Assembly: GCF_001677475.2 (NCBI RefSeq)
Contig: NZ_CP015229.1
Origin: Escherichia coli
Lineage (GTDB): Bacteria > Pseudomonadota > Gammaproteobacteria > Enterobacterales > Enterobacteriaceae
Length of the DNA: 64,000 bases
Reading direction: 5' to 3' (one strand)
This document shows positions 20,364 through 21,506 of this stretch, piece after piece (within the stretch, counting starts at the first letter, position 1; every line of letters starts with the position of its first letter). Both the position numbers and the translations under genes were made by a program. The notes below the pieces were generated by a model. It saw nothing but the letters and a program-made list of their open reading frames with translations, searched no databases and was not told the DNA's origin.

Positions 20364-20459
20364 CATGGGGCCGGATACAAAAAAGGCCGCAGGCTGTTAC
20401 TCCTGCGGCCGGTTTCGGGCGCATATTGCCATCACGGCAGCCTGACACCCGTTTTCACC

Positions 20460-20567
20460 TTACTTCCGGTTACGCCACCAGCTGACAATCGCTGCGGTAA
20501 TAATTCCCGCCAGGATCGGTGCTGCCAGGTCGTGCCAGAAAGTCATGGCAAACTGCGTGAGCGTCAT
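20460..20567 (-). CDS. ldr: Ldr-family type I toxin peptide, 35 aa (MTLTQFAMTFWHDLAAPILAGIITAAIVSWWRNRK)
   Basis: Hand-translated minus-strand ORF, ATG to TAA; single TM helix, basic WWRNRK tail; below the 60-aa ORF-track cutoff. Confidence 0.8.
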   Translation of the reverse strand: MTLTQFAMTFWHDLAAPILAGIITAAIVSWWRNRK

Positions 20568-20614
20568 ATAGCCGCCTTGTTGTAATGACAACATTTTGCG
20601 GCTATTCTTGAATT

Positions 20615-20681
20615 GTTGTGGTTCAAGATTAACCCCCGTTCTGTTGTCAGGTTATACCTCTCAACGTGCGGGGGTTTTCTC
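20615..20681 (+). ncRNA. rdl: Rdl-type cis-antisense RNA (antitoxin), approximate boundaries
   Basis: Opposite strand, about 48 nt beyond the ldr start; ACCCCCG...CGGGGG hairpin then TTTTCTC; boundaries by analogy to K-12 rdl, not measured. Confidence 0.45.
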
Positions 20682-20994
20682 TTTCCAGCAACCAATGCCA
20701 CCAGGGATTAAACCCCCGCAACATTGCGCCTCACCGGATAACGCCGGCTTGGTGTGGATACTACGACTCAATTCATCTTCACTTCATCCCTGAAATGTAT
20801 GCAATGAAGAGTGCATTCCGGTTTTTCAACAGCTGTTACAGTCGTTTCATGAGTGCTCTGGATGATGCTTCCAGCTCGGGTTGCCAATATTTACTTGTGG
20901 AAGAGATAAAGACAAAAAAGGCCGCAGGCTGTTACCCCTGCGGCCGGTTTCGGGCGCATATTGCCATCACGGCAGCCTGACGCCCGTTTTCACC

Positions 20995-21102
20995 TTACTT
21001 CCGGTTACGCCACCAGCCGACAATCGCTGCGGTAATAATTCCCGCCAGGATCGGTGCCGCCAGGTCGTGCCAGAAAGTCATGGCAAACTGCGCGAGCGTC
21101 AT
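20995..21102 (-). CDS. ldr: Ldr-family type I toxin peptide, 35 aa (MTLAQFAMTFWHDLAAPILAGIITAAIVGWWRNRK)
   Basis: Hand-translated; differs from copy 1 at two residues (T4A, S29G). Confidence 0.8.
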   Translation of the reverse strand: MTLAQFAMTFWHDLAAPILAGIITAAIVGWWRNRK

Positions 21103-21149
21103 ATAGCCGCCTTGTTGTAATGACAACATTTTGCGGCTATTCTTGAAGT

Positions 21150-21216
21150 GTCTGGTTTCAAGATTAGCCCCCGTTTTGTTGTCAGGTTTTACCTCTCAAC
21201 GTGCGGGGGTTTTCTC
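21150..21216 (+). ncRNA. rdl: Rdl-type cis-antisense RNA, copy 2, approximate boundaries
   Basis: Same relative position and hairpin (GCCCCCG...CGGGGGTTTTCTC) as copy 1. Confidence 0.45.
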
Positions 21217-21506
21217 TTTCCAGCAACCAATGCCACCAGGGATAAAGCCCCCGCAACATTGCGCCTCACCGGATAACGCCGGCTTGGTGTGGATACTACG
21301 TCTCAATTCATCTTCACTTCATCCCTGAAATGTTTGCAATAAAGAGTACATTCCGGCTTTTCAACAGCTGTTGCAGTGGTTTCGTGCAGGTTGTGGTACA
21401 GGCTCGCAATTCTGATTAACGACCTGTCCAGGTAGTATGAAGAAATACAATAAGCAGGAATTTATATTATCTCCCCCGATTTCCGTCATCGGAGGAGATA
21501 TAACTG

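What the first reader, a model, noticed from the sequence alone, without database searches (positions are those of the whole stretch)
20377..21390. Two tandem 535-bp Ldr/Rdl type I toxin-antitoxin units between kdsA and chaA
Each unit encodes a 35-aa hydrophobic peptide with a WWRNRK tail on the minus strand and, about 48 nt beyond its start on the other strand, a hairpin-terminated short antisense transcript. The two toxin copies differ at two residues (T4A, S29G). From memory the K-12 reference carries three units here, so this window appears to have one fewer; that is a recollection, not a measurement. The toxin ORFs are below the 60-aa ORF-track cutoff.
Basis: partly seen in the sequence, partly recalled or inferred. 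Interest (0 to 1): 0.5.

Follow-up and report, generated by a model that had tools for sequence, protein, structure and literature searches.

The report
Two tandem Ldr/Rdl toxin-antitoxin units
This is the well-known E. coli "long direct repeat" locus between kdsA and chaA, here with two copies of a small membrane-toxin gene, each with its own antisense RNA antidote; it is an ordinary, common variant of a locus that has three copies in the K-12 reference.

Summary
Window 20377-21386 holds 1.9 head-to-tail copies of a 535-bp unit, 95% identical with no indels. Each unit carries a 35-aa minus-strand ORF that matches Pfam Ldr_toxin over its full length (E=8e-25). Each also carries a plus-strand 66-nt hairpin RNA that matches Rfam rdlD at 84 and 92 bits (threshold 50). 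That RNA starts 48 nt beyond the toxin start codon, exactly as in K-12.

The unit 2 ORF is nucleotide-identical to K-12 ldrB. The unit 1 peptide equals RefSeq WP_000176713.1.

Two copies is not unusual. In an evenly spaced sample of 59 complete E. coli genomes I found 9 with one copy, 22 with two, 26 with three and 1 with four. Two sister Escherichia species also carry two copies at this site.

The likely mechanism is the published one. A stable toxin mRNA is kept silent by its own folding and by a short-lived antisense RNA that pairs with the 5' leader. Comparison across genera gives modest support for a hok-like fold-back between the start region and the 3' UTR, and for a conserved leader start codon.

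Verdict: already known, low interest.

The parts
20377..20911 (.). LDR unit 1 (535 bp), most like K-12 LDR-A, with the same left junction to the kdsA terminator
20377..20410 (-). Intrinsic terminator of ldr mRNA 1: stem GGCCGCAGG/CCTGCGGCC (20385-20410) followed by a T run
   Evidence: terminator helix 99% paired across 28 loci from several genera
20423..20450 (-). 3'-UTR segment predicted to pair with the translation-initiation region (20559-20594) of the same mRNA (fold-back)
   Evidence: MFE fold. The upstream helix was recovered independently by RNAalifold and has one covarying pair. Inferred, not shown.
20460..20567 (-). ldr toxin ORF 1, 35 aa, MTLTQFAMTFWHDLAAPILAGIITAAIVSWWRNRK (equals WP_000176713.1)
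20580..20608 (+). Putative Rdl-1 promoter: TTGTAA, 17-nt spacer, TATTCT, ending 7 nt before the RNA start. It overlaps the ldr ribosome-binding region on the other strand.
   Evidence: Read directly from the sequence. It scores 8 of 12 consensus positions, below the scan threshold. Inferred.
20615..20680 (+). Rdl-1 antisense RNA, 66 nt: single-stranded 5' tail, long hairpin and U tail
   Evidence: Rfam RF01813, 84.1 bits; fold -26.7 kcal/mol, z -4.55
20647..20724 (-). 25-codon leader ORF in the ldr 5' UTR (MLRGFNPWWHWLLERENPRTLRGIT), preceded by GAGG. Its 3' part lies inside the Rdl target. Candidate for the proposed ldrX leader.
   Evidence: The start codon with GAGG is present in most Ldr loci of other genera, but the stop position varies. 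Its function is inferred.
20725..20800 (-). Rest of the ldr-1 5' UTR and the presumed promoter (TAGTAT at about 20758-20763). A start near 20757 would give an mRNA of about 379 nt.
   Evidence: Sequence only; no consensus promoter found. Uncertain.
20912..21386 (.). LDR unit 2, the terminal unit, 475 bp of repeat before the unique chaA-side flank. The ORF equals K-12 ldrB, the Rdl equals K-12 rdlC, and the right junction equals LDR-C.
20912..20945 (-). Intrinsic terminator of ldr mRNA 2
20995..21102 (-). ldr toxin ORF 2, 35 aa, nucleotide-identical to K-12 ldrB
21150..21215 (+). Rdl-2 antisense RNA, 66 nt, identical to the first 66 nt of K-12 rdlC
   Evidence: Rfam RF01813, 91.8 bits; fold z -5.11
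21182..21259 (-). 25-codon leader ORF of unit 2 (MLRGLYPWWHWLLERENPRTLRGKT)

Best explanation
The region is the chromosomal LDR (long direct repeat) locus of E. coli. It holds two complete Ldr/Rdl type I toxin-antitoxin modules in tandem.

How each unit most likely works:
1. The minus strand gives a highly structured mRNA of roughly 380 nt, with a 5' UTR of about 190 nt, a 35-codon toxin ORF and an intrinsic terminator.
2. The plus strand gives a 66-nt hairpin RNA, Rdl. It is perfectly complementary to positions -48 to -113 of that 5' UTR, so it does not cover the toxin's ribosome-binding site.
3. While Rdl is being made, it pairs with the leader and prevents toxin synthesis indirectly. The duplex is also an RNase III substrate.
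4. Independently of Rdl, the full-length mRNA probably keeps its own start region closed by pairing it with a segment of the 3' UTR.
5. If toxin is made, the peptide inserts into the inner membrane through its single hydrophobic helix. Its WWRNRK tail stays at the membrane surface. The membrane is damaged, ATP falls, the nucleoid condenses and growth stops.

Shown here: the identity and completeness of all sequence parts, their homology to the characterised systems, and the copy number.

Taken from the literature on ldrD/rdlD and LdrA: toxicity, rescue by Rdl, the stable mRNA with a labile antisense RNA, and the RNase III duplex.

Inferred: the promoter positions, the fold-back, and the leader-ORF step.

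The two-copy state is a common allele produced by unequal recombination among the repeats.
For: Identity
- Pfam Ldr_toxin matches at E=7.7e-25 over the full length.
- ORF 2 is nucleotide-identical to K-12 ldrB. ORF 1 is 2 nt from ldrA/ldrC and its peptide equals a RefSeq Ldr protein, WP_000176713.1.
- Rfam rdlD matches at 84 and 92 bits against a threshold of 50.
- The units align with K-12 LDR-A/B/C at 94% mean column identity, with the same junctions.
- PGAP annotates the same two-gene arrangement as 'type I toxin-antitoxin system toxin Ldr family protein (x2)' in thousands of genomes.

Completeness
- Both ORFs are intact.
- Both ldr terminators and both Rdl terminator hairpins are present.
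- Both Rdl sequences fold into the family hairpin (z -4.6 and -5.1).

mRNA structure
- The predicted 379-nt mRNAs fold far better than shuffled controls (z -5.3 and -5.7).
- In those folds, positions -27 to +9 around the AUG pair with 3'-UTR positions 20423-20450.
- Across 28 Ldr loci from Escherichia, Citrobacter, Salmonella, Klebsiella, Kluyvera and Pseudocitrobacter, 90.4% of cells in this structure pair, against 31-53% for slid controls.
- RNAalifold recovers the upstream helix on its own, and pair 21/177 occurs as AU 9, GU 9, GC 7, UA 1.

Leader
- An ATG preceded by GAGG at about -157 is present in all E. coli units examined, including ldrD, and in most loci of other genera.

Literature
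- LdrD overproduction is toxic, RdlD rescues, and Rdl overlaps the 5' UTR rather than the RBS; the ldrX leader is a proposal (PMC4147584, PMC8167048).
- An RNase III-cut duplex was captured in the ldrD/rdlD overlap (PMC7373196).
- LdrA is an inner-membrane toxin that lowers ATP and is described as pore-forming (PMC7472228, PMC12643268).

Copy number
- K-12 has three units.
- In the 59-genome sample the counts are one copy 9, two 22, three 26, four 1. Examples of one, two and four copies were checked in annotated records.
- Two copies lie between kdsA and chaA in E. whittamii and Escherichia sp. E1V33, and one copy in Pseudocitrobacter.
Against: - No expression data were available, so transcription of either strand in this strain is unverified.
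- No sigma-70 consensus promoter passed the scan on either strand, so the promoter assignments are weak matches read by eye.
- For the part of the fold-back that covers the Shine-Dalgarno sequence and the AUG, RNAalifold prefers local hairpins. Most variation there is one-sided, so the covariation support is modest. The structure was also derived from one of the aligned sequences, which inflates the contrast with the slid controls.
- The leader ORF has no conserved length. It runs 11 to 88 codons, and in some genera it is fused in frame to ldr. The frame that ends in ATGA on the toxin start is not conserved. The leader-coupling step therefore remains a hypothesis.
- RNase III loss only slightly stabilised ldrD mRNA (PMC7373196).
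Confidence: 0.95

Rival explanations
1. The units are sequence relics. The ORFs and antisense elements are recognisable but no longer expressed or toxic in this lineage, so the locus does nothing.
For: No phenotype has been tied to deleting any Fst/Ldr chromosomal system (PMC7472228). Copy number drifts freely between one and four, and IS elements sit inside the interval in many strains. That is what weak selection would look like. No consensus promoters were found.
Against: Both ORFs are intact. One is nucleotide-identical to the K-12 gene. Both Rdl RNAs score well above the family threshold, and the one stem change keeps its pair (G-U to A-U at 20632). The terminators are intact. The RNA structure and a 3'-UTR octamer are conserved across genera. 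The site has been occupied since before Escherichia and Pseudocitrobacter split. K-12 relatives of these units are transcribed and toxic (PMC7373196, PMC12643268).
Confidence: 0.04
2. Rdl acts mainly by destroying the toxin mRNA: duplex formation followed by RNase III cleavage. Blocking translation through a leader ORF or a structural switch would then be secondary.
For: A roughly 21-nt RNase III-dependent duplex from the ldrD/rdlD overlap is among the most abundant captured in E. coli. A shorter ldrD fragment accumulates only in the rnc mutant (PMC7373196). Complementarity is perfect over 66 nt in both units, because the RNA is cis-encoded.
Against: Levels and half-life of full-length ldrD mRNA rose only slightly without RNase III (PMC7373196). 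Reviews classify Rdl as inhibiting protein synthesis (PMC4147584). The conserved leader start and the fold-back point to control at translation.
Confidence: 0.2
3. On copy number: the window lost a unit from a three-copy ancestor by unequal crossing-over between LDR-B and LDR-C. The alternative is that two copies is the older state and K-12-like strains gained one.
For: Unit 2 is a mosaic. Its ORF and several downstream sites match K-12 LDR-B, while its Rdl, other sites and its right junction match LDR-C. Three copies is the commonest state in the sample.
Against: A mosaic pattern arises equally from gene conversion, or from B and C being daughters of one unit. Two copies at the same site occur in E. 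whittamii and Escherichia sp. E1V33, and one copy in Pseudocitrobacter. The closest E. coli relatives at this locus (PCN033, VCSW5) also have two copies, with the same unit 1 peptide. This favours an old two-copy state with repeated gains and losses.
Confidence: 0.3

Closest known systems
E. coli K-12 LDR-A/B/C (ldrA-rdlA, ldrB-rdlB, ldrC-rdlC) between kdsA and chaA
   Same: Same chromosomal site, same 535-bp period, same gene order and strands, and same 48-nt offset between the toxin ATG and the Rdl 5' end. The left junction equals LDR-A and the right junction equals LDR-C. ORF 2 equals ldrB and Rdl-2 equals rdlC at nucleotide level.
   Different: Two units instead of three. The unit 1 peptide differs from LdrA by A4T and I9T. 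Unit 1 has four sites not seen in the 18 other units compared: 20447, 20618, 20632 and 20709.
ldrD/rdlD (LDR-D), the experimentally characterised member (Kawano et al. 2002, as cited in PMC4147584)
   Same: Same architecture, with a 35-aa toxin, a 64-66-nt antisense RNA opposite the 5' UTR, the same leader ATG context and the same 3'-UTR pairing segment.
   Different: A single unit at another locus (bcsG-yhjV). The peptide is MTFAELGMAFWHDLAAPVIAGILASMIVNWLNKRK. In ldrD the long upstream frame runs in frame into the toxin ORF.
hok/mok/sok of plasmid R1 and its chromosomal copies
   Same: It works alike. There is a stable, tightly folded toxin mRNA with a long leader, a labile antisense RNA that targets the leader rather than the toxin RBS, a proposed leader ORF (mok or ldrX), and 5'-3' fold-back (PMC4147584, PMC8167048). 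A sub-threshold Rfam 'sok' RF01794 match lies on the ldr 5' UTR (30 bits against 59).
   Different: The toxin family is unrelated (Hok, about 50 aa). 3' processing and mok coupling are demonstrated for hok only. The locus is not a member: the Rfam score is below threshold and there is no Hok homology.
Fst / RNAI-RNAII (par of pAD1) and other Fst/Ldr superfamily toxins
   Same: The toxins belong to one superfamily: a transmembrane helix with a PXXXG motif (P17-G21 here), a tryptophan after the helix, and a charged tail (PMC2887945, PMC7472228; sequence).
   Different: In the Fst systems the antisense RNA overlaps the 3' ends of the toxin genes, so the regulation is distinct (PMC2887945, PMC7472228).
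ibs/sib tandem type I modules of E. coli
   Same: Small toxin and antisense pairs repeated in tandem in one intergenic region. For Sib, sequence differences between copies give cognate-only repression (PMC2943612, PMC2887945).
   Different: The peptide (19 aa) and the RNA are unrelated. Sib covers the whole ibs ORF. Cognate discrimination has not been shown for Rdl.

Membership tests
Ldr/Rdl type I toxin-antitoxin (LDR repeat) | Toxin of about 35 aa that matches the Ldr_toxin profile (Pfam PF13940) | tested here: met
   E=7.7e-25, residues 1-35 on model 1-35. Unit 2 is identical to K-12 LdrB.
Ldr/Rdl type I toxin-antitoxin (LDR repeat) | Fst/Ldr superfamily signature: hydrophobic helix with PXXXG, tryptophan after the helix, charged C-terminus | tested here: met
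   Both peptides read ...AAPILAGIITAAIV(S/G)WWRNRK. The signature is as defined in PMC2887945 and PMC7472228.
Ldr/Rdl type I toxin-antitoxin (LDR repeat) | Cis-encoded antisense RNA of about 66 nt on the opposite strand that matches the rdlD covariance model | tested here: met
   RF01813 at 84.1 and 91.8 bits against a gathering score of 50, full length, on the plus strand
Ldr/Rdl type I toxin-antitoxin (LDR repeat) | [quoted passage not shown] | tested here: met
   Rdl spans -48 to -113 relative to the toxin ATG in both units, the same as the K-12 annotation.
Ldr/Rdl type I toxin-antitoxin (LDR repeat) | Unit of about 530 bp repeated directly, at the kdsA-chaA site | tested here: met
   Period 535, 95% identity; flanks and junctions as in K-12
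Ldr/Rdl type I toxin-antitoxin (LDR repeat) | The peptide is toxic when overproduced, and toxicity is relieved by the cognate Rdl | not testable with these tools
   Shown for LdrD/RdlD and LdrA in K-12 (PMC4147584, PMC12643268). ORF 2 equals ldrB, but neither unit of this strain was assayed.
Ldr/Rdl type I toxin-antitoxin (LDR repeat) | Stable toxin mRNA and unstable antisense RNA, both transcribed | not testable with these tools
   No expression data. The terminators are present, but promoters are only weak matches to consensus.
hok/sok-type regulation (what it works like, not homology) | A leader ORF whose translation is needed for toxin translation and which the antisense RNA blocks (mok / proposed ldrX) | tested here: inconclusive
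   An ATG with GAGG at about -157 is conserved in all E. coli units and in most loci of other genera. The ORF length ranges from 11 to 88 codons. The ATGA-overlapping frame is not conserved.
hok/sok-type regulation (what it works like, not homology) | Fold-back pairing of the 3' end with the 5' or start region, keeping the full-length mRNA inert | tested here: inconclusive
   Predicted in both units. The upstream helix is conserved with one covarying pair across genera and was recovered by RNAalifold. The part over the SD and AUG was not recovered.
hok/sok-type regulation (what it works like, not homology) | Membership of the Rfam sok family or Hok toxin homology | tested here: not met
   RF01794 scores 30.5 and 29.4 bits against a gathering score of 59. 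The peptide matches Ldr_toxin only.

The most novel reading that the evidence does not exclude
The copies may not be redundant. Differences between LDR units concentrate in the parts of Rdl that usually start antisense pairing: four of the first seven nucleotides of the 5' tail and the middle base of the apical loop. If so, each Rdl could preferentially silence its own ldr mRNA, as Sib does for Ibs. Copy-number variation from one to four would then change the number of independent toxin circuits a strain carries.

A linked idea is that ldr mRNAs may need 3'-end processing to open a conserved fold-back before they can be translated or bound by Rdl, as hok mRNA does. Neither idea has been shown for ldr in the reviews I read.
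Probability: 0.25. Interest if true: 0.3.

Novelty: already known. Interest (0 to 1): 0.07.

Why it matters
It matters little as a discovery. The locus, its toxin, its antisense RNA and its tandem repetition have been described since 1999-2002, and genome pipelines annotate it routinely.

The check is still useful in three small ways:
- It replaces a recollection with a measurement. K-12 has three copies. The species ranges from one to four, with two and three about equally common.
- It adds comparative support for a step in the Ldr mechanism that reviews still call unproven: how an antisense RNA that misses the ribosome-binding site can silence the toxin.

Tried and rejected
- NCBIfam found no family for either peptide. 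This says nothing about homology, because Pfam matches the same peptides strongly and RefSeq names the identical proteins Ldr family.
- The consensus promoter scan found nothing on either strand. The promoters in the parts list are weak matches read by eye and are marked as inferred.
- I first took the leader to be the frame whose TGA overlaps the toxin ATG (ATGA). It is open for 45-67 codons in A-type units. It is cut by a TAA in the Rdl loop in B/C-type units, and it has no start codon in ldrD or in several other strains. I rejected it as a conserved coupling ORF.
- I asked whether the window-specific 3'-UTR change at 20447 compensates for the A4T codon change at 20558. It does not. Position 20447 pairs with 20562 (G-C becomes G-U), and 20558 simply loses a terminal pair.
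- The Kawano 2012 review was not held by DOI, so the exact published definition of ldrX could not be checked.
- The first guess at ldrD coordinates, taken from an older genome version, hit bcsE-bcsG. The correct locus was fetched.
- The first copy-number survey used a query that included the repeat. BLAST pieces broke at unit boundaries, so the result was ambiguous. I replaced it with a flank-only query.
- The weak rnk_leader match at 20254-20369 (E=0.61) lies on the kdsA terminator and was dismissed as chance.
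Full report
**What is in the sequence.** Between the end of kdsA (19458-20312, plus strand) and the end of chaA (21507-22607, minus strand), the window carries one direct-repeat family. Its copies start at 20377 and 20912, 535 bp apart. Aligned over their whole length, the copies match at 452 of 476 columns (95%) with no insertion or deletion. Similarity stops at about 21386, where the unique chaA-side flank begins.

**The toxin genes.** Each unit has a 35-codon ORF on the minus strand, at 20460-20567 and 20995-21102. The mechanical ORF list shows them as 44 aa because an in-frame ATG lies 27 nt upstream. 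The annotated start in every reference genome is the second ATG, which is preceded by AAGGCGG. The peptides are MTLTQFAMTFWHDLAAPILAGIITAAIVSWWRNRK and MTLAQFAMTFWHDLAAPILAGIITAAIVGWWRNRK. The first peptide matches Pfam Ldr_toxin end to end at E=7.7e-25. The second ORF is identical at nucleotide level to K-12 ldrB. The first is two nucleotides from ldrA/ldrC (A4T and I9T), and its peptide equals RefSeq protein WP_000176713.1 of E. coli PCN033 and VCSW5. Both peptides show the Fst/Ldr superfamily signature described in PMC2887945 and PMC7472228: a hydrophobic helix containing PXXXG, a tryptophan after it, and a basic tail.

**The antisense RNAs.** The Rfam rdlD model (RF01813) matches the plus strand at 20615-20680 (84.1 bits) and 21150-21215 (91.8 bits), against a gathering score of 50. 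Both matches are full length. Each sequence folds into the family's long hairpin with a free 5' tail and a U tail, at -26.7 kcal/mol (z -4.6 and -5.1 against shuffles). Each RNA starts 48 nt beyond the toxin start codon on the other strand, exactly as in the K-12 annotation. Rdl is therefore complementary to positions -48 to -113 of the toxin mRNA leader and does not touch the ribosome-binding site. Rdl-2 equals the first 66 nt of K-12 rdlC. A weak promoter-like pair sits just upstream of Rdl-1: TTGTAA, 17 nt, TATTCT, ending 7 nt before the RNA start. It is below the scan's threshold and is only an inference.

**Copy number.** NC_000913.3 annotates three units here, ldrA/rdlA, ldrB/rdlB and ldrC/rdlC, at 535-bp spacing.

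To see whether two copies is unusual, I searched all 5,426 complete RefSeq E. coli genomes with a query made of the two flanks only, then read the interval length in 59 records taken at even steps down the ranking:

| State of the kdsA-chaA interval | Genomes |
|---|---|
| one unit (about 480 bp) | 9 |
| two units (about 1,015 bp) | 16 |
| two units plus an IS200C | 6 |
| three units (about 1,550 bp) | 25 |
| three units plus IS150 | 1 |
| four units | 1 |
| irregular | 1 |

Annotated records confirm the one-, two- and four-gene states. O157:H7 has two. The sample follows the make-up of the database, not of the species, but two copies is plainly a common allele.

A scan of one genome per bacterial species with an Rdl motif, followed by a search for kdsA and chaA in the loci returned, gave three results. 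E. whittamii and Escherichia sp. E1V33 have two units between the same genes. Pseudocitrobacter has one. The site was therefore occupied before these genera split, and a two-copy array is old.

Unit 1 is the A-type unit. Unit 2 mixes B-like and C-like sites. This fits unequal crossing-over or gene conversion and does not tell loss from gain.

**How it most likely works.** The literature establishes the following for the K-12 relatives.
- Overproduced LdrD kills the cell, and RdlD prevents this.
- Gerdes and Wagner proposed a leader ORF, ldrX, by analogy with mok of hok/sok, but 'further work is needed' (PMC4147584; also PMC8167048, PMC5416894).
- An RNase III-cut duplex from the ldrD/rdlD overlap is abundant in vivo, yet loss of RNase III only slightly stabilises the mRNA (PMC7373196).
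- LdrA is an inner-membrane toxin that lowers ATP and is now described as pore-forming. Its toxicity is eased by YajC (PMC7472228, PMC12643268).

I looked for what the sequence adds. Assuming a start near 20757, the 379-nt mRNAs of both units fold much better than shuffled controls (z -5.3 and -5.7). In both folds the region from 27 nt before the AUG to 9 nt after it pairs with a 3'-UTR segment (20423-20450 in unit 1) in three helices.

I then aligned this half of the mRNA from 28 loci in six genera.
- The named structure pairs in 90.4% of cells, against 31-53% when the partners are slid.
- RNAalifold recovers the upstream ten-pair helix unaided.
- One pair in that helix occurs as AU 9, GU 9, GC 7 and UA 1.
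- The helices over the Shine-Dalgarno sequence and the AUG are less certain. RNAalifold prefers local hairpins there, and the changes are mostly one-sided.
- The structure came from one of the aligned sequences, which favours it over the slid controls.

I read this as moderate support for a hok-like fold-back, not as proof.

**The leader.** An ATG preceded by GAGG lies about 157 nt upstream of the toxin start in every E. coli unit examined, including ldrD. It opens a 25-codon frame whose end lies inside the Rdl target (20647-20724 and 21182-21259). The same start context is present in most loci of the other genera. The frame's length there ranges from 11 to 88 codons, and in some it runs in frame into the toxin ORF. 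A different frame, whose stop overlaps the toxin ATG as ATGA, is not conserved. A translated leader is therefore plausible. What is conserved is its start, not its product or its end, and the same nucleotides also take part in predicted pairing with the invariant 3'-UTR octamer UGCGCCCG. I could not check which ORF the original authors called ldrX.

**Variation between units.** Among 19 units from nine genomes, the commonest polymorphisms cluster at the Rdl 5' end (window 20613-20621) and at the middle base of the apical loop (20654, three alleles). The two Rdl RNAs of the window differ at 7 of 66 positions: 3, 4, 5, 7, 18, 27 and 40. Four of these are in the 5' tail and one is in the loop. 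The stem change at 20632 keeps its pair. Six of the 18 commonly polymorphic columns fall in one 10-column stretch (nominal P about 2e-7). That stretch was chosen after looking, and the units are related, so this figure is descriptive only. The pattern resembles the one that gives cognate-only repression in the Sib/Ibs family (PMC2943612). For Rdl it is only an idea.

**Comparison with what is known, and verdict.** This is the LDR locus itself, not merely something like it. Every sequence-level defining feature of the Ldr/Rdl family was tested and met. Only the physiological features (toxicity, rescue, RNA half-lives) could not be tested. It works like hok/sok but is not a member of that family: the Rfam sok model scores 30 bits against a threshold of 59, and the peptide has no Hok homology. 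Both peptides already exist in RefSeq, the arrangement is annotated in thousands of genomes, and the copy number is a common allele. The finding is correct and already known, and interest is low.

Noticed in passing
window 30000-50000 and 17877-23890: The window is not close to any of the 5,426 complete RefSeq E. coli genomes. The best identity is 98.2% over 20 kb and 99.0-99.1% around the LDR locus. The source appears to be an Escherichia lineage poorly represented in that collection.
   Followed up: partly
window 37347-37965, minus strand: Three tandem RtT RNA elements (RF00391, 135-137 bits) lie next to a tRNA. This may be the known tyrT-type repeat arrangement, recalled from memory and not checked.
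   Followed up: no
window 20565-20717 and 21100-21252, minus strand: The Rfam 'sok (CssrC)' model RF01794 aligns end to end with the ldr 5' UTR, down to the toxin AUG, at 29-31 bits (E about 3e-4, gathering score 59). The order of hairpins is the same. This may reflect shared ancestry or shared architecture of these toxin leaders.
   Followed up: partly
L078 6267-6334, L117 8596-8660, L116, L065 741-806, L085 11177-11240, L069 719-783 and 1169-1234: In Atlantibacter, Kluyvera and an unnamed Enterobacteriaceae genome, an Rdl RNA (above the Rfam threshold where I scanned, 52-75 bits; L116 was not scanned) sits opposite a different 30-aa hydrophobic peptide. Examples are MTFKQAFWLAVLTSIIGPIVVALIRYFFSF and MTFREALVIAVVTSVIGPIVVTLVCHFFNL. 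These lack the WWRNRK-type tail and match neither Pfam Ldr_toxin nor any NCBIfam model. This could be a divergent or frame-shifted Ldr on a conserved RNA scaffold.
   Followed up: partly
L012, L024, L067, L086, L030 (8262), L085: In several Citrobacter, Kluyvera and Escherichia loci the conserved leader ATG opens a frame of 82-88 codons that runs in frame into the toxin ORF. This predicts an N-terminally extended toxin if it is translated.
   Followed up: no
kdsA-chaA interval of other E. coli genomes (hits H1-H37, H66, H69, H127, H144-H151): The interval is a recurrent landing site for insertion sequences. IS200C is present in the records most similar to the window's LDR array, among them an ST38 isolate. 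IS150, ISApl1 and IS66 occur in others.
   Followed up: no
L009 (E. coli HS-02) 2585-3435: This is a two-unit array with irregular spacing: 743 bp between toxin ORFs instead of 535, and an interval of 1,224 bp. One unit therefore carries an insertion of about 209 bp.
   Followed up: no
L056 (Klebsiella spallanzanii), L064 (Kluyvera sichuanensis), L040, L110, L075, L016: Tandem arrays of two or three Ldr/Rdl units, with periods of about 455-530 bp, occur independently in other genera. Tandem amplification is therefore a general habit of this module, not an E. coli peculiarity.
   Followed up: partly
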